Part shown: in pieces, positions 1,215-37,083 of the stretch
Position numbering within the stretch: the stretch's first letter is position 1
Layout of the letters: the number at the start of each line of letters is the position of its first letter
Source of the DNA: Promethearchaeota archaeon
GTDB taxonomy: Archaea > Asgardarchaeota > Lokiarchaeia > Sigyniarchaeales > SOKP01
Direction of reading: 5' to 3'
DNA length: 37,479 bases
Assembly: GCA_019058245.1 (NCBI GenBank)
Contig: JAHPZJ010000029.1
Location: forward strand, 29,708 to 67,186
Program-made: the position numbers and the translations under genes
The notes under the pieces: model-generated
What the model was told of the DNA's origin: nothing
Databases searched by the model: none
The model's input: the letters and a program-made list of their open reading frames with translations, nothing else

Positions 1215-1970
1215 ATGGCAAAACAAATCGAAAAAACTAAAGAAGAAAAAATTGAGATTGAAAAAGATGAGATAAAAGAACCTGAACCAAAAGATAAACC
1301 GATTTATGTTAAGGTGAGCGATGAGACAAGAAATTTGATTGATGAATATAAAGATCAAGGAACTACCATATCTGATCTCGTTAAAAATGCTGTAAAATGC
1401 TATGATGATTTTAATTCAATCTCTCCAGAAGTGCAAGCTATAATAAAAAAATATAAGGAAGAAGATGAAAACGAGATATTATTTGTAGAACGAGCAATCA
1501 AATATTATGGAGAACAGAAAAATCTTGATAGAGATCTTTGGGTACGTGCTAGAGATGAAATGAAAATGATGCTGATAGGAAAAACAACATTTAACCAACT
1601 TATACATGCCGCTGAAATACCAGAAGAAAGTTTGGATAAACCATGGCGGAAAAATGTAGCAATTGATTTAATTCTATGGTATAACGATTCCAAACCACTT
1701 AAAAGTCTTAGTATAGAAGAAATTATAGGTACAATACAAAAGGTTTGGGTTGTCGCAAATTACTTCCACACTATTGATGTAAACAAAGAAAGTGCTGATG
1801 AATTTCATATGCTTTTCAGACATCGGCAAAATAAGCGATATGGTACATATTGGTTAGGATATTTTACAGAATTATTTACTTCTGAAGAAATGCCGTTTAA
1901 ATGTGAAGTTGAAGGCCAAGCTTTTGATGAATCTATTTCATTAACATTAAAAATTGGATATGAAAAATAA
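1215..1970 (+). CDS. Putative regulator: ribbon-helix-helix-like N-terminus plus V4R-like C-terminal domain
   Basis: IYVKVSDETRNLID...TISDLVKNAV fits a beta-helix-helix pattern; C-terminal alpha/beta region with YW.GYF.ELF; GAGAGG SD-like motif upstream. Confidence 0.5.
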   Translation: MAKQIEKTKEEKIEIEKDEIKEPEPKDKPIYVKVSDETRNLIDEYKDQGTTISDLVKNAVKCYDDFNSISPEVQAIIKKYKEEDENEILFVERAIKYYGEQKNLDRDLWVRARDEMKMMLIGKTTFNQLIHAAEIPEESLDKPWRKNVAIDLILWYNDSKPLKSLSIEEIIGTIQKVWVVANYFHTIDVNKESADEFHMLFRHRQNKRYGTYWLGYFTELFTSEEMPFKCEVEGQAFDESISLTLKIGYEK

Positions 1971-8215: not shown

Positions 8216-8422
8216 GGATTAAATCAATCTCTTTTTTTGTTGTAGTATTTTTAATTCTTATAAAAATTATCAGAAATCAATGAAGTGTATTAAAAAAAAG
8301 ATTTTTTGAGATGAACAAGTTAATAAGTTCATTCGAAGTTTCGAGTTAACTTTATATTCCCAAATTAAGTCAAAAATTGAAGAACCCTATAAAAATATAG
8401 ATTATAATAGAAAGTCTTTATT

Positions 8423-30491: not shown

Positions 30492-32153
30492 TTAATCTCT
30501 CATTTCTTTTGGAAGTGTTAAAGTTCCGGTGAGCGGATTATTAAGTGGATCCTGACAATATTGGATAGTAAAGTATATTAAATCATATAAAATACTTGGA
30601 TCCTCTCCATTTTGTAATTTATAATCATAAAGGGAAAGCTGATATTCTGCTTCAGTTATTGGTGGTTCCGCATAAGAGATGTTTCCAAAAACGGATTGTA
30701 AAAGAGGTTTCATAAATGGTGAATATAGAAAACCTAATTCTTTTAATACATCTTTTAGATAGAAGAACAATCTCTGGACAGCTTGCATCATATAGCGTAT
30801 AGGATGATTTTCTGGACCCAAATATTGCTCAGCAAAATCAGGATCATATTGAGCAAGTTTTTCTCGTGATATATTCAGAGGTCGGAATAAAGAAATTAAC
30901 CCTCTCTCAATTGCCCCTTCTCGATTAGTTGCAATTGTTTCACTACCAGCATCGGGTACCCATACGCCCTTTTCTAACAATTTTCTTGTTTTATAACACA
31001 TAGCTTGAATTAACATTCCGATTCCAATTCGACGGCAAATAGAAATTTGGGCATCACTAATTCTGACTTCAATTGTCCCCCAATCTGTTAATGGAAACAC
31101 ATCTTGAAACCTCCCATCCTCTAAGCTTGCCTTCTGCACGGTTTGAAGGAAATAATTTACGGAATTTTCATTTAGATCTGTTAAGTAAGGGATATAATAT
31201 TTTGGGTCATTCCCACTCAGCATCGTAGTATTATTCTTTAATCGCAACGACCTAGTACAGTTTGGTGCGGTAATTCGGCCATTAATAATCTTTACTACAT
31301 CTGTAGGTCGATTATTAATAATTGGTGAATTACATGTCAGGGAAATGAGATGTGGGATGAAATTTCGTATCATACAATAAGCTTGAACTTTTTCTAATTC
31401 AGAACTAAAGGAGCCTATATGAGAATGATCAGCCTGAGAAACTCCACGCATGTATTCCTTCGTCGCAGGATTGATAGCGGAAGCTATAATATGCAAATCT
31501 TTTGGTAATGTGGCTTTTGCTAATAAAAATAGAGTACTTGCCCAATATGCTAATTCTTCAACATAAACACATGGAGGCGTTACGAGTTCTAATATATAAG
31601 TAATTGCGGTTACATTCCCATCTCTAGCAAAAGTATCTATATCGACATATGAATCACCTAGAGCGTATCGAATATCCATAGCATACCCTTTTTCTAAATC
31701 ATCCTTCCCCCATGGTCTAGCTAAGACCTTTTGCCTAATGTATTCAGGAACTGGGAGAAAATCTTCTCTTCCCTCATATAACATCTCATCCATGATTTTA
31801 ATAGCATCTTTAACAATCTCTTTCATCCGAAATACCATTTCCTCTCCAGGAGGATATTCTCCACTATCATCAGCAATAATCAATTCCATTTCAATACCAT
31901 GAGTAAAAGGTAAAGCTGTCCAATTTTCAGTGTCAGCTAATATTTCGGACCATGGGTGTTCAGGGATTAGAACTTCTTTATAATCAGTTCCAAGAAATAA
32001 TTTATCTCCAGATCTATCAATACTTTCTCCTAACGTAACAGCTGAAGATAACCCTGATTTTCCTTTTTTAGCATATAAATGTGAAAAAGTATCCCCTCGT
32101 TGTTCTACTTTTTTCTTTTTTTTATCTTTCTTTTTTTTTTTATCTTTTGTCAT
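30492..32153 (-). CDS. Glutamate-cysteine ligase (GCS2)/carboxylate-amine ligase family protein
   Basis: THGIEMEL, ELVTPP, HSHIG, GTIEVRISD; Lys-rich N-terminus. Confidence 0.8.
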   Translation of the reverse strand: MTKDKKKKKDKKKKKVEQRGDTFSHLYAKKGKSGLSSAVTLGESIDRSGDKLFLGTDYKEVLIPEHPWSEILADTENWTALPFTHGIEMELIIADDSGEYPPGEEMVFRMKEIVKDAIKIMDEMLYEGREDFLPVPEYIRQKVLARPWGKDDLEKGYAMDIRYALGDSYVDIDTFARDGNVTAITYILELVTPPCVYVEELAYWASTLFLLAKATLPKDLHIIASAINPATKEYMRGVSQADHSHIGSFSSELEKVQAYCMIRNFIPHLISLTCNSPIINNRPTDVVKIINGRITAPNCTRSLRLKNNTTMLSGNDPKYYIPYLTDLNENSVNYFLQTVQKASLEDGRFQDVFPLTDWGTIEVRISDAQISICRRIGIGMLIQAMCYKTRKLLEKGVWVPDAGSETIATNREGAIERGLISLFRPLNISREKLAQYDPDFAEQYLGPENHPIRYMMQAVQRLFFYLKDVLKELGFLYSPFMKPLLQSVFGNISYAEPPITEAEYQLSLYDYKLQNGEDPSILYDLIYFTIQYCQDPLNNPLTGTLTLPKEMRD

Positions 32154-32268: not shown

Positions 32269-34107
32269 TTATAATAAGGATTGGATAAACGACTTGAAAA
32301 TATTATAATCATTAATAAATTCATAGGAAAGTACTAAGTTAATTACTTTGCATTTGTTGATTGGAAATATTTCTTTTAAGTAATCAACAATTTTACCCCC
32401 TTTGAAAAAAGAATCATCTACAATCAAGTTAATGGAATCTCCAATTTTATCAACTTTAGAGTGAAATATCGCTTCCAAACCAACCTCATCTGATACGATA
32501 ACAGTAGGTTTTCCTAAGTATGGAATAAAATCTAAATTAAAAATTATTACTTGATTTGGAGCATTATTAATTTTGTTGAAAAATTGCTTTAACGAAGTTT
32601 GAAGAGTTCTAAGTTCATTTTCAATATAATTCTTTTTTGATGGAAACACATAGTAGGCTATTGACTTGTTTAATGAATATTTTATATCATTATATACACG
32701 ATCCATTATAGGAAATATGCTAAAATCGAAACCGAATAATGATACTAATGCAATTGTAAAATTAAAATCGCCTAATAGTAGATTATTACTAACATTTCCA
32801 CCATTCAAAGAAAAATTTCTTATCTCATTACCAACAGCCGAACTGAGTATATTTAATACATAATACTGAGAAAATACTAATTGTGATTCTGTTTTTGTTC
32901 TAATTTCATCAACCATCACGTAAATATCATCAAAGATATCTTTATTAATTTTTTCTTTAAGTTCAGGAATATCCAAATTTTCAATAATAGTATGTGCTTT
33001 CGTAGGATTTTCAATTTCGGCAAGAAGAATAATAACATCTTTAAAAATTTTATAATATTGCTTTTTATAATCTGCTTTGAGTAAGTTTAAGATTTTTTCA
33101 ATAATCAAATTAATTACAACAACTAATTCAGATGCAATATTTTGTTCTTTCAATTTTTTCGCTACATTGAATAAGATTTGAATCTTTCGAATTTCACTCT
33201 CCACATGACCTATTAATTTTAACGCTAATAATGGATTTGATTCAATCATCTTACTATAAATCTTGAGGAATAAATCCTCTTTCGATGAGGAATCTTGAAT
33301 TAAAAGAGCAACTTTTATTGCTCGTTCTGGATTTATTTCCACGTGATCTTGAGCCAGAAGTTCTAGTAATTGTTGCTTATTTTTTGGATCACTCAAATTA
33401 TTAACAATTTGTAAGGTGGAATCAATATTTTTTAAACCATAGGCTCTAATTAAATTAAAGTAGAAATCTATCTGTTCTTTCTTTTTAGATAGCATTAACG
33501 CTAATTCTAAAGCACGAGTTGGATTGTTATTTGAAAGATATCCTTTTGCTAGATTTTTTAAATACTTATCGATTTCTTCTAAAAGTTCTGGACTTTTTGT
33601 ACCTGCAGCTTGTAGAGATGTATATTCTTCCCTTAATTTTTTTAATTGTTGTTCTGCTTTTTTTATTACATCTTTCTTCATTTCAATAATAAAATTATTT
33701 TGGTTAAATGATTCCATACTCTTTTTATTGCTGAAAATATAATTCTCTAAAATTTTGTTGAATTTTCTTTCGTGGATTTGTTCCCTTACTTTTTGTACTT
33801 TAACAGTATATTCTGTAATCTTTAACCAATAGACTTTAATTATTAACTTACCGGAACCATCTGAAGTAGGATCTAATTTTAATTCTATATTTTTTGTTTC
33901 TCCAGGACTAAACTCTGATATCTCCTTAAGACCGACAGGTTCAACATTAATAGTTAAATTTTCGCCCTCAAATTCAAACTTAAAATTTTCAATTTTATTT
34001 GTATTATTTATTGCTTGAATTGAAATGTTATTATCAATTCCAGGAATTAATAAATTTTGAGGGAATTTTGTTATATTTAAAGATATAATTGTATTAGGAT
34101 CTGACAT
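32269..34107 (-). CDS. Hypothetical: Ig-like N-terminus, alpha-solenoid, alpha/beta C-terminus
   Basis: PGETKNIELKL beta sandwich; repeated NP..AL..A..I helical units. Confidence 0.6.
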   Translation of the reverse strand: MSDPNTIISLNITKFPQNLLIPGIDNNISIQAINNTNKIENFKFEFEGENLTINVEPVGLKEISEFSPGETKNIELKLDPTSDGSGKLIIKVYWLKITEYTVKVQKVREQIHERKFNKILENYIFSNKKSMESFNQNNFIIEMKKDVIKKAEQQLKKLREEYTSLQAAGTKSPELLEEIDKYLKNLAKGYLSNNNPTRALELALMLSKKKEQIDFYFNLIRAYGLKNIDSTLQIVNNLSDPKNKQQLLELLAQDHVEINPERAIKVALLIQDSSSKEDLFLKIYSKMIESNPLLALKLIGHVESEIRKIQILFNVAKKLKEQNIASELVVVINLIIEKILNLLKADYKKQYYKIFKDVIILLAEIENPTKAHTIIENLDIPELKEKINKDIFDDIYVMVDEIRTKTESQLVFSQYYVLNILSSAVGNEIRNFSLNGGNVSNNLLLGDFNFTIALVSLFGFDFSIFPIMDRVYNDIKYSLNKSIAYYVFPSKKNYIENELRTLQTSLKQFFNKINNAPNQVIIFNLDFIPYLGKPTVIVSDEVGLEAIFHSKVDKIGDSINLIVDDSFFKGGKIVDYLKEIFPINKCKVINLVLSYEFINDYNIFKSFIQSLL

Positions 34108-34224: not shown

Positions 34225-34992
34225 TTATTTTCCCATTCGTCGATTTCTTGCAATATAATCCTTGAGATCCTCAATTACCATTTCTTTATTGTAATCAGGC
34301 CAATACTCTTTTCGAAATTTAAATTCTGCATAAGAAGAATCCCACAATAAAAATCCTGAGAGTCTTGCTCCATCATTCATACCAGTTCTAATAATATAAT
34401 CTAAGGGAGGGAAGTTTTTCGAATAAAGATGTGATTTTATTAAAGATTTATCTACCTGTTCTGGTGTAATTCCATTACTTACTATCTCCTTCACAGCGTC
34501 AACAATTTCTTCATGTCCATCATACATAACGCAGAGATTAATGAAATTTTGATTATAATTTTTAGTAAGTTCAATTAATTCTTGAAACTTACCCCTAACC
34601 TCATTGGGCAATATTGAAATCCTTCCAATAACGTTAAATCTAACTTTTTCTTCTTTAACGATTGATTCGTTTATAATCGTATCGATAGCTTTAATCATTA
34701 TCTTGTAAATATATTCAATTTCTTCAGGTTTACGTTTCTTCACATTTTCGAGCGATAAAAGATATAAACTCAAATAATGAATCCCCGCGTCAAAAAAATC
34801 GAATAAACGTTTTTTAAGGTTTTCATAACCAATTAAATGCCCTAAATTAATTTCAAGATTTCGCTTTTTGGCCCATCTTCTGTTAATGTCTAGAAGTGGA
34901 AATCTCTTCCAAGTACCATCAATAATGAGGCCAATATGTCTAGGTAATCTCTCTTTTTCTTTTAATTTTAGTTCTTCTAGAATTGTTTGCAT
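34225..34992 (-). CDS. uppS: cis-prenyltransferase (polyprenyl diphosphate synthase) interrupted by a 30-nt insertion
   Basis: PRHIGLIIDG[+10 aa]NRRWAK, GH..G, SLEN..R, YDG..EI, IIRTG...RLSGFLLW..SYAE, YWPD, R.MG; probable ATG at 34992. Confidence 0.92.
   Translation of the reverse strand: MQTILEELKLKEKERLPRHIGLIIDGTWKRFPLLDINRRWAKKRNLEINLGHLIGYENLKKRLFDFFDAGIHYLSLYLLSLENVKKRKPEEIEYIYKIMIKAIDTIINESIVKEEKVRFNVIGRISILPNEVRGKFQELIELTKNYNQNFINLCVMYDGHEEIVDAVKEIVSNGITPEQVDKSLIKSHLYSKNFPPLDYIIRTGMNDGARLSGFLLWDSSYAEFKFRKEYWPDYNKEMVIEDLKDYIARNRRMGK
34884..34913 (-). other. Candidate BHB-type mRNA intron in uppS
   Basis: Removing CUUGGAAGAGAUUUCCACUUCUAGACAUUA restores GAU GGU AAC AGA AGA UGG; both junctions fall in 3-nt bulges flanking a 4-nt helix. 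Confidence 0.75.
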
Positions 34993-35724: not shown

Positions 35725-37083
35725 ATGACAAATTCAGAAGTTGACGTTATTATAGTTGGAGGGAGCATGGCAGGTACCTCTTTAGCATTTAATTTATCAA
35801 GAAAGAGTCAATTAAAGATTATCGTAATTGATCGTTCTAAAAGAGAATTACTTGGAAAAAAATGTTGTGGAGATATTTTTTTTGGAGACTGGGAAAAAGA
35901 TCATCTTCTTACTCCTCAGGAAGATGAAATTTTTGATACATGGAAGGATCATGATTTAGTTATACATGCGGAAGATACCCATGGAAAAACTCGTTTTGCA
36001 AATGGACTTATTGTGGATCGTCTTAAATATACTCAACGATTGCTAAAAGAGGCAGAAAGAAATGGTGTTAAAATATTTGCCAATAGAAAAGTGGTTAAAC
36101 CAATAATTGAAAATGATTCTATTGTTGGTGTTGTTGCTATAAATCAAAAGACAAAAGAACGAGAAACTTATAGAGCAAAGCTAATAGCTGATACCTCGGG
36201 ATTCGCCCATGTAGTCCGAAGAAACATTCCTGAAGGAAGTTTTCCTTTATTAGAAAAAAAAATATCTTATATGGTAGATGGATATAGAGAAATCTTAAAG
36301 GTTGATCCTAAAATCGATCAACGTCTTATTATGGTTGTTTCAGATGATTTACCTGTAGGATCTTTTTTTTGGGTGGTGGATCAAGCAAGAGGACGAGTAA
36401 ATGCAGGTATGTATATACGTAATAATGAGGGAGAAGAAAAAAAGAAATTACCAGATGTTTTTAAAAATATATTACATACACAATTTTATACGGAAGATCA
36501 GTATGAGGTAGAAGAAGCGAGTGGATGTCCAATTCCTTCAGTTATTCCTATGACAAATATTGTAGGGAATGGATTCGTAACATTTGGAGAAGCCGGTACT
36601 CAAACAAGTCCAATAATTGGAGATGGAATCCGGCAAGGTCTATTAACGGGTGAATCAATATCGGATATAATAATCGGAGCATTTGATAAAGGAGATCTCT
36701 CTGAAAAAGGACTTTGGGAAGTAAATAAGATAGTTCAACCAAATACCATTAAAAATATCATTGCTTATTTTCGATTAATGGCATTCAAAGAGTTTGGTAA
36801 TGAAGGATTAAAATTACTGTTAAAAAGAATTCCTGATCAAATTGGTGCTTTTTTTTTAACTGAAAATCTTTCATTTTTCGAACAACTTACTTCAGCTTTC
36901 AAACTCAGAGAAAAAAATATATTGAAAGCATTACTTAAGATTCAACTAAACACAAGAAAACTTAAGAAAATATTTAAAAAATATCCCAACACCCCAGAAA
37001 ATTATCTTAAATGGCGAGATAAATTTCTCGAGTTTATTGATGATTGTATAGGATCTAAACAATCCCTTCTTGTAACGCAATAA
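35725..37083 (+). CDS. Geranylgeranyl reductase family FAD-dependent oxidoreductase
   Basis: DVIIVGGSMAG, GKKCCGD, IVDR, FGEAG.QTSP..GDGI. Confidence 0.85.
   Translation: MTNSEVDVIIVGGSMAGTSLAFNLSRKSQLKIIVIDRSKRELLGKKCCGDIFFGDWEKDHLLTPQEDEIFDTWKDHDLVIHAEDTHGKTRFANGLIVDRLKYTQRLLKEAERNGVKIFANRKVVKPIIENDSIVGVVAINQKTKERETYRAKLIADTSGFAHVVRRNIPEGSFPLLEKKISYMVDGYREILKVDPKIDQRLIMVVSDDLPVGSFFWVVDQARGRVNAGMYIRNNEGEEKKKLPDVFKNILHTQFYTEDQYEVEEASGCPIPSVIPMTNIVGNGFVTFGEAGTQTSPIIGDGIRQGLLTGESISDIIIGAFDKGDLSEKGLWEVNKIVQPNTIKNIIAYFRLMAFKEFGNEGLKLLLKRIPDQIGAFFLTENLSFFEQLTSAFKLREKNILKALLKIQLNTRKLKKIFKKYPNTPENYLKWRDKFLEFIDDCIGSKQSLLVTQ

What the first reader, a model, noticed from the sequence alone, without database searches (positions are those of the whole stretch)
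34868..34934. Hidden in-frame bulge-helix-bulge intron in the catalytic motif of uppS
Seen: the conserved cis-prenyltransferase motif DGNRRW reads DG-TWKRFPLLDI-NRRW, a 30-nt insert. The minus-strand RNA folds as 5'-UUGGCC U CAUU A UUG AUGG [UA^C] UUGGAAG-(9-nt loop)-CUUCUAG ACAU [UA^A] CAG AAG AUG GGCCAA-3'. This gives a long exon-exon helix (UUGGCC/GGCCAA, CAU/AUG, UUG/CAG), a central helix AUGG/ACAU with one G-A mismatch, two 3-nt bulges on opposite strands and a 7-bp intron stem. Cutting after the second nucleotide of each bulge removes exactly 34884-34913 and gives GAU GGU A|AC AGA AGA UGG. Established: this is the geometry cut by archaeal tRNA splicing endonuclease (EndA) and ligated by RtcB; archaeal mRNA introns are known from few genes, notably crenarchaeal cbf5. 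Inference: an Asgard mRNA intron in the carrier-lipid synthase gene, invisible to gene callers because it is in frame and stop-free. The unspliced protein would have a disrupted diphosphate-binding loop, so splicing could gate enzyme activity, and more such introns may be hidden genome-wide.
Basis: partly seen in the sequence, partly recalled or inferred. Interest (0 to 1): 0.95.

Follow-up and report, generated by a model that had tools for sequence, protein, structure and literature searches.

The report
tRNA-type mini-intron in Asgard uppS
The only gene found for the lipid-carrier enzyme UppS in this Asgard archaeon has a 30-base insert in its catalytic motif that is shaped like a tRNA intron and carries a stop codon in 28 of 29 related copies, so it is very probably cut out of the messenger RNA, which the papers I could search confirm inside a coding sequence for only one archaeal gene (cbf5).

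Summary
Observation confirmed. A 30-nt insert (34884-34913, minus strand) splits DG|NRRW in the only uppS found in a Promethearchaeota (Loki-type) genome. I found 29 distinct copies at this site, all 30 nt; 28 carry an in-frame stop. This window is the only stop-free one (TAG to TGG at 34910, stem kept by a G-U pair), so being 'hidden' is a local accident.

Both exons are under purifying selection (dN/dS 0.09-0.15), and relatives without the insert read DGNRRW exactly. The intron stem, one exon-intron pair and one exon-exon pair show compensatory changes in the register whose bulge cuts restore the motif. The motif is relaxed: only the two middle central pairs always form. The genome encodes a two-subunit EndA with the crenarchaeal-type specificity loop, and RtcB. 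A same-type 31-nt insert splits mvk in this genome.

Best reading: an EndA/RtcB-spliced mRNA intron, about 0.9. No spliced RNA was seen and no RNA run was listed. Regulatory gating is untested. The scan has already noted this uppS intron in other genomes and the class many times; I found no paper describing it.

The parts
34225..34992 (-). uppS (cis-prenyltransferase) coding region, 255 codons unspliced, 245 spliced; only PF01255 gene found in the genome
34914..34992 (-). Exon 1 (79 nt), ends ...Asp-Gly plus the first A of the Asn codon
   Evidence: dN/dS 0.15 over its last 18 codons among insert-bearing copies
34884..34913 (-). Predicted 30-nt BHB intron
34225..34883 (-). Exon 2, starts with AC completing the Asn codon
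   Evidence: dN/dS 0.09
34920..34922 (-). Exon 1 arm (UUG) of the exon-exon helix h
   Evidence: all three pairs form in 25 of 25 copies; middle pair U-A 13, G-C 12
34880..34882 (-). Exon 2 arm (CAG) of the exon-exon helix h
   Evidence: middle pair Watson-Crick in 25/25 insert-bearing against 7/49 insert-free genes
34916..34919 (-). Central helix, exon strand (AUGG)
   Evidence: second pair U-A 12, C-G 12, U-G 1; third pair G-C 25/25; outer pairs form in 11/25 and 6/25
34913..34915 (-). Bulge 1; predicted cut between 34914 and 34913
   Evidence: middle base A in 25/25 copies; cut position from the BHB rule (PMC2738675)
34890..34912 (-). Intron hairpin: 7-bp stem (34912-34906 with 34896-34890) and 9-nt loop
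   Evidence: 98% of cells paired, two pairs with changes on both sides
34886..34889 (-). Central helix, intron strand (ACAU)
34883..34885 (-). Bulge 2; predicted cut between 34884 and 34883
   Evidence: AAA or UAA in 25/25 copies
34910..34910 (-). A-to-G change that turns the in-frame TAG of sister genomes into TGG while keeping the stem (A-U to G-U)
   Evidence: only difference from the L002/L031 insert

Best explanation
The insert is an archaeal BHB-type intron in the uppS mRNA. The transcript folds into exon-exon helix, 3-nt bulge, relaxed 4-bp central helix, 3-nt bulge and intron hairpin (structure shown by folding and covariation). The two-subunit EndA cuts after the second base of each bulge (inferred from the known rule) and RtcB joins the exons (inferred), giving an mRNA that encodes DGNRRW. 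In relatives the unspliced message stops two to four codons into the intron. In this genome the stop was lost, so unspliced message would give a 255-aa protein with 10 residues inside the diphosphate-binding loop, probably inactive (inferred from family knowledge, not tested). The intron is most simply an old, constitutively spliced passenger that has been lost precisely several times; a regulatory role is possible but unsupported.
For: 29 distinct copies, all 30 nt at the same site, 28 with an in-frame stop (TAG, TAA or TGA, some with two). It is the only PF01255 gene in G000, G003, G006 (one contig) and G024 (100% complete). Exons keep dN/dS 0.09 and 0.15, like insert-free genes at 0.11; exon 2 is a full 218 codons in all but one copy that could be read to its end. 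Insert-free relatives read DGNRRW exactly (126 proteins). Stem 98% paired; covariation above all 500 shuffles and all slid controls. The synonymous Asp codon base covaries with its intron partner, and the exon-exon pair is Watson-Crick in 25/25 against 7/49 insert-free genes. The insert changes more slowly than fourfold sites (stem 0.14, loop 0.20, fourfold 0.38). The genome has two EndA paralogues, one aligning with PDB 3p1z_B (from memory Aeropyrum pernix EndA) including the specificity loop and Tyr/His/Lys, and RtcB. PMC5829648 reports Asgard (alpha-beta)2 EndA with the L1 loop, which cuts relaxed motifs. A tRNA gene on C27 has a 29-nt intron with the same geometry.
Against: No spliced RNA, excised circle or in vitro cleavage was seen. 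The central helix is imperfect: the pair next to bulge 1 is G-A in 19 of 25 copies and the first pair fails in 14 of 25. The exon covariation may rest on only one or two independent events, since the G-C/C-G type is confined to one clade plus L041. G102 has a second, intact uppS, so one of the copies need not be essential.
Confidence: 0.9

Rival explanations
1. Translational bypass: the ribosome stalls at the stop in the hairpin and hops 30 nt, as in T4 gene 60, with no RNA cutting.
For: A stop sits at the start of a hairpin in most copies; in about 6 of 25 copies the codon before the stop is AAT (Asn), which could re-pair at AAC 30 nt on and give DGNRRW.
Against: In the other copies the codon before the stop is Ile, Thr or Ser and a hop would not restore the motif; this window has no stop at all; exon-exon and exon-intron covariation is not needed for hopping.
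Confidence: 0.03
2. In this genome the former intron is no longer spliced and is tolerated as a 10-residue protein loop.
For: This copy is stop-free and gives a full-length ORF; the branch to its subclade is long (0.27).
Against: The insert differs from a stop-bearing sister copy at 1 of 30 bases while synonymous exon sites differ at 43%, and that one change keeps the stem. None of 126 intact homologues has extra residues there. The long branch is shared with stop-bearing sisters.
Confidence: 0.03
3. The genes are dead or N-terminally truncated by a small hairpin insertion (pseudogene, or re-initiation downstream as public annotations assume).
For: Public entries-235-aa proteins without the Asp-Gly. 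G102 has an intact second copy.
Against: Single copy in four checked genomes; purifying selection on exon 1 as well as exon 2; no other lesion apart from one short metagenome contig. The truncated form lacks the catalytic Asp (family knowledge).
Confidence: 0.02
4. The insert is removed at DNA level or by a different, unknown RNA-processing enzyme rather than by EndA.
For: The central helix is consistently imperfect and the loop sequence is more conserved than neutral sites, which could reflect another recognition factor.
Against: Both junctions fall exactly after the second base of 3-nt bulges on opposite strands, which is the EndA rule; no insert-free near-identical allele was found (closest insert-free protein to this copy 83% identical).
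Confidence: 0.02

Closest known systems
BHB intron in the cbf5 pre-mRNA of Desulfurococcales and Sulfolobales (Watanabe 2002, Yoshinari 2006, Yokobori 2009 PMC2738675)
   Same: Short (cbf5 16-44 nt), no ORF, relaxed BHB, cut between bulge bases 2 and 3, phase-1 junction in a catalytic motif, hetero-oligomeric EndA, patchy with secondary losses; some cbf5 introns (33, 36, 39 nt) keep the frame too, and a negative-regulator role was already proposed.
   Different: Different phylum (Promethearchaeota) and a lipid-synthesis gene; fixed length of 30 nt in all 29 copies; other genes in the same genome and family carry similar inserts (mvk, pfkA); splicing not yet shown by experiment.
BHB intron in the 5' UTR of Haloferax volcanii HVO_1309 (Schwarz 2020, PMC7714728)
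   Same: mRNA substrate of the splicing endonuclease, short (46 nt).
   Different: Lies in an untranslated leader; removal is not needed to restore a coding sequence.
Archaeal tRNA introns, abundant in Asgard archaea (bioRxiv 10.64898/2026.10.13.758758)
   Same: Same motif, similar size, same enzymes; repeated gains reported.
   Different: That study covers tRNA genes only ('mRNA' and 'cbf5' do not occur in it); the uppS intron model found no similar tRNA intron in this genome.
HAC1/XBP1 non-spliceosomal mRNA splicing in eukaryotes (from my own knowledge)
   Same: mRNA cut by an endonuclease and sealed by a tRNA ligase (RtcB in animals).
   Different: Cut by Ire1 at stem-loops, not by EndA at a BHB; known to be regulated.

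Membership tests
Archaeal BHB (EndA/RtcB) intron | Two 3-nt bulges on opposite strands around a 4-nt central helix, flanked by an exon helix and an intron helix | tested here: met
Archaeal BHB (EndA/RtcB) intron | Fully paired 4-bp central helix (canonical hBHBh') | tested here: not met
   3 of 4 pairs here; only the two middle pairs form in all copies. Fits the relaxed class described for most cbf5 introns
Archaeal BHB (EndA/RtcB) intron | Cutting after the second base of each bulge restores the mature sequence | tested here: met
   gives DGNRRW in all 29 copies
Archaeal BHB (EndA/RtcB) intron | Structure conserved by compensatory change and insert not conserved as protein | tested here: met
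   28 of 29 copies contain stops; few independent events for the exon pairs
Archaeal BHB (EndA/RtcB) intron | Host encodes EndA of a type that cuts relaxed motifs, and RtcB | tested here: met
   two PF01974 genes, one with the L1-type loop and catalytic triad; one PF01139 gene
Archaeal BHB (EndA/RtcB) intron | Spliced RNA or excised intron seen in vivo | not testable with these tools
   no RNA run was listed
Archaeal BHB (EndA/RtcB) intron | Cleavage by EndA in vitro | not testable with these tools
   bench experiment
cis-prenyltransferase (UppS, PF01255/TIGR00055) | Family score above cut-off with motifs DGNxRW, H-x2-G, SxEN, RT and RxS | tested here: met
   the first motif is intact only after removing the insert
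Group I or group II self-splicing intron | Ribozyme core of well over 100 nt | tested here: not met
   the insert is 30 nt in every copy
Translational bypass element (T4 gene 60, byps) | Matching take-off and landing codons with a stop directly after take-off | tested here: not met
   fits about 6 of 25 copies; this copy has no stop

The most novel reading that the evidence does not exclude
Loki-type Asgard archaea routinely splice protein-coding mRNAs with the tRNA-splicing enzymes, through a population of roughly 30-nt introns in conserved catalytic motifs (here uppS and mvk of one isoprenoid pathway), some of them in frame and stop-free and so invisible to annotation; precise loss of these introns is frequent. 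The further step, that splicing is used to regulate isoprenoid synthesis, I put at about 0.15.
Probability: 0.75. Interest if true: 0.88.

Novelty: new variant of a known kind. Interest (0 to 1): 0.77.

Why it matters
Papers I could search give cbf5 as the single confirmed BHB intron in an archaeal coding sequence (PMC2738675, PMC7714728). An intron in a single-copy lipid-carrier gene across two clades of Promethearchaeota, with more in mvk and pfkA, would mean mRNA splicing is ordinary in close relatives of eukaryotes and that expression of basic metabolic enzymes depends on EndA and RtcB. It also corrects annotation: 59 listed database entries from the clade around L149 are N-truncated UppS proteins (4 of 4 checked, counting P0146, carry the insert), and gene callers invented TAG=Q or TGA=W codes to read through it. 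This copy shows that stop-free introns can pass as intact proteins with a small insertion, so counts based on broken genes are lower bounds. The 30-nt substrate is easy to synthesise, so the claim is directly testable in vitro.

Tried and rejected
A metagenome scan for both the spliced and unspliced junction gave six insert-bearing loci and one insert-free gene (L102) from a different species (86% DNA identity to its nearest locus), not a spliced copy. No 245-aa database protein matched a spliced product (best 92%; cluster look-ups). P0123 looked like a second stop-free copy but is a TAG=Q caller artefact. Stop-codon recoding (Sec, Pyl, alternative code) rejected: the stops are TAG, TAA and TGA, sometimes two, and read-through would still leave 10 extra residues. 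An alternative register with an 8-bp stem was rejected: it shows no covariation and would remove 32 nt. AlphaFold models of the unspliced protein and of an insert-free control were both poor (mean pLDDT 49 and 42) and say nothing. De novo genome-wide BHB scans were too permissive or timed out before the controls ran; a paralogue-based scan was noisy, though it flagged 30-31-nt breaks at C22, C3 and C17, so I give no genome-wide count. A loose DNA pattern across 54 genus genomes gave mostly chance hits, with 10 true inserts, all 30 nt. The promoter scan was at chance level. Two paper searches for the UppS catalytic loop returned nothing, so that point rests on my own knowledge.

Full report
OBSERVATION. 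The minus strand carries uppS at 34225-34992. After GAT GGT A come 30 extra bases (34913-34884); removing them gives GAT GGT AAC AGA AGA TGG and a 245-aa protein. The intron hairpin is firm (most pair probabilities 0.8-0.9) and the central helix weak (0.25-0.30); shuffled inserts reached the same pairing in 63 of 200,000 trials. A Logan contig from SRR14817123 holds the same junction and protein. Solved cis-prenyltransferases have no residues at this place. From my own knowledge, the Asp and the following G-N-x-R loop bind Mg2+ and the allylic diphosphate.

SOURCE. The nearest relatives are titled Promethearchaeota or Lokiarchaeota, for example Loki_b32 and bin108. Some depositors label near relatives Odin-, Thor-, Hod- or Hermodarchaeota, but the one I matched (L032, the same place as G070:C349) is placed in the window's own genus. 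The assembly is 76% complete.

RELATIVES. Pooling genome and metagenome loci gave 29 distinct junction sequences with an insert at this exact site and 47 without. Every insert is 30 nt. Twenty-eight contain an in-frame stop (TAG, TAA or TGA; some two). Only this window is stop-free. It differs from its sister copy L002 at one insert base, A to G at 34910, which turns TAG into TGG and an A-U pair into G-U, while synonymous exon sites differ at 43%. Ten of 54 genomes of the genus carry the insert, and so do 8 of 31 sampled from genus g18 and one from g25. The other families sampled show no extra length. On the UppS tree the insert needs at least 7 changes (4 forced by well-supported branches), and one clade of insert-bearing genes is rejected (p-AU 8e-68; 15 loci dropped for a frame offset in my script). 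Because the inserts are homologous, one old gain with repeated precise loss is the simplest reading, but the tree is unrooted and lateral spread is not excluded: L041 has junction flanks of the g18 type although its protein nests in g1.

NOT A DEAD GENE, NOT PROTEIN. Insert-bearing genes have dN/dS 0.09 in exon 2 and 0.15 in the last 18 codons of exon 1, against 0.11 in insert-free genes. The gene is the only PF01255 member in G000, G003, G006 and G024; G102 has a second, intact copy. All 126 intact homologues in the first search read DG directly followed by NxRW. Variation within the insert does not follow codon position (0.19, 0.20, 0.16) but does follow structure (stem 0.10, loop 0.23).

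STRUCTURE. On 14 copies the named structure has 87% of cells paired against 30-52% for slid controls; the intron stem is 98% paired, with G-C/A-U swaps at two pairs. On 25 copies the three exon-exon pairs always form, the middle one as U-A (13) or G-C (12); the second central pair is U-A (12), C-G (12) or U-G (1), tracking the synonymous Asp codon; the third is G-C in all; the middle base of both bulges is A in all. The exon-exon pair is Watson-Crick in 25 of 25 insert-bearing genes but 7 of 49 insert-free ones. Kin are not independent, and the exon swaps may be one or two events. The outer central pairs are often G-A, A-A or A-G, so this is a relaxed BHB.

MACHINERY. The genome has two EndA genes and RtcB. 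One EndA aligns best with PDB 3p1z_B (E 4e-35), including the loop GSPLGINKP and the Tyr, His and Lys of the active site; the other lacks the His and is the likely structural subunit. PMC5829648 reports that Asgard archaea have (alpha-beta)2 EndA with the L1 loop and that this type cuts relaxed motifs. A tRNA gene on C27 has a 29-nt intron of the same geometry. A covariance model of the uppS intron found no donor-like copy elsewhere in this genome, so its origin is open.

MORE INTRONS. A weak hit of the uppS model in G126 is a 30-nt hairpin splitting the GGDDT motif of a phosphofructokinase. Hairpins are present at the ahcY, cdhA, response-regulator and ABC sites that earlier notes named, but I did not test those against relatives. 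My genome-wide scans did not give a reliable count.

MECHANISM. Shown: the insert, its fold, its conservation as RNA, the need to remove it in stop-bearing single-copy genomes, and the presence of the enzymes. Inferred: cutting by EndA after bulge base 2 and sealing by RtcB. Confidence 0.9. Translational bypass, exonisation, pseudogene and other excision routes each fail on specific points listed under rivals. Whether the stop itself is selected cannot be separated from selection on the stem, although shuffled inserts are stop-free 47% of the time and two copies that lost the first stop (L041, L158) have a later one. Regulation is untested.

KNOWN SYSTEMS. It works like the cbf5 intron and meets every test of that class I could run, apart from a fully paired central helix, which most cbf5 introns also lack; splicing in vivo could not be tested. 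In-frame introns in a catalytic codon and a regulatory hypothesis both have precedent in cbf5. Schwarz 2020 lists only cbf5 and a Haloferax 5' UTR intron; Yokobori 2009 mentions unconfirmed predictions in other genes. Eight searches on archaeal or Asgard introns found no report for Asgard coding genes (the library lacks many subscription papers). Earlier notes of this scan describe the same uppS intron in other genomes and 72 findings match the class; one claims spliced environmental RNA for a different gene, which I did not check.

VERDICT. A real, very probably spliced BHB mRNA intron; a new variant of a known kind; interest 0.77. What this copy adds is a natural case of a stop-free intron that passes as an intact gene.

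Noticed in passing
L134:~415-446 (G000:C15:~8315-8345): Mevalonate kinase is split at GE|HF by a 31-nt hairpin insert; nine genus relatives share a 31-nt insert there, four relatives and two outgroup genomes lack it. Two isoprenoid-pathway genes of this genome thus carry such inserts.
   Followed up: yes
L163:~1500-1545 (G126:C205:15725-15767): A 30-nt hairpin splits the GGDDT motif of a 6-phosphofructokinase-like gene; removal restores the motif and frame.
   Followed up: partly
L159:~1500-1545 and L160:~1500-1545 (minus strand): Weak hits of the uppS intron model with similar hairpins and, in L159, the same mismatched fourth central pair; host genes not identified.
   Followed up: partly
L103:176-952 and L189:32-739: Gene callers read these uppS genes with TAG=Q or TGA=W because of the stop inside the insert, creating false alternative-code proteins.
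   Followed up: yes
Proteins P0142-P0252 (clade around L149): 59 listed entries are N-truncated UppS proteins lacking the Asp-Gly; no full-length protein at 82% identity or more was listed, suggesting the insert is fixed in that clade.
   Followed up: partly
L041:3058-3132: Junction flanks and covarying pairs resemble the distant g18 type although the protein nests in genus g1 next to an insert-free gene; possible lateral transfer with co-conversion, or retained ancestral state.
   Followed up: no
G102:C1:488877-489568 and G102:C7:104361-105026: This genome has both an insert-bearing uppS near a contig end and an intact second copy; paralogue or bin contamination.
   Followed up: no
G000:C17:~90570-90640 (L139): A 31-nt frame break against a paralogue, not yet examined for a BHB in the right register.
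   Followed up: no
G000 whole genome: ARAGORN finds only 19 tRNA genes, many with implausible anticodons, which suggests multiply interrupted tRNAs plus incomplete assembly.
   Followed up: partly
window 30492-32153 (-) and 35725-37083 (+): Neighbours: a glutamate-cysteine-ligase-like (YbdK family, below cut-off) gene downstream and a geranylgeranyl-reductase-family gene divergent from uppS; the 612-aa gene at 32269-34107 has no NCBIfam hit.
   Followed up: no
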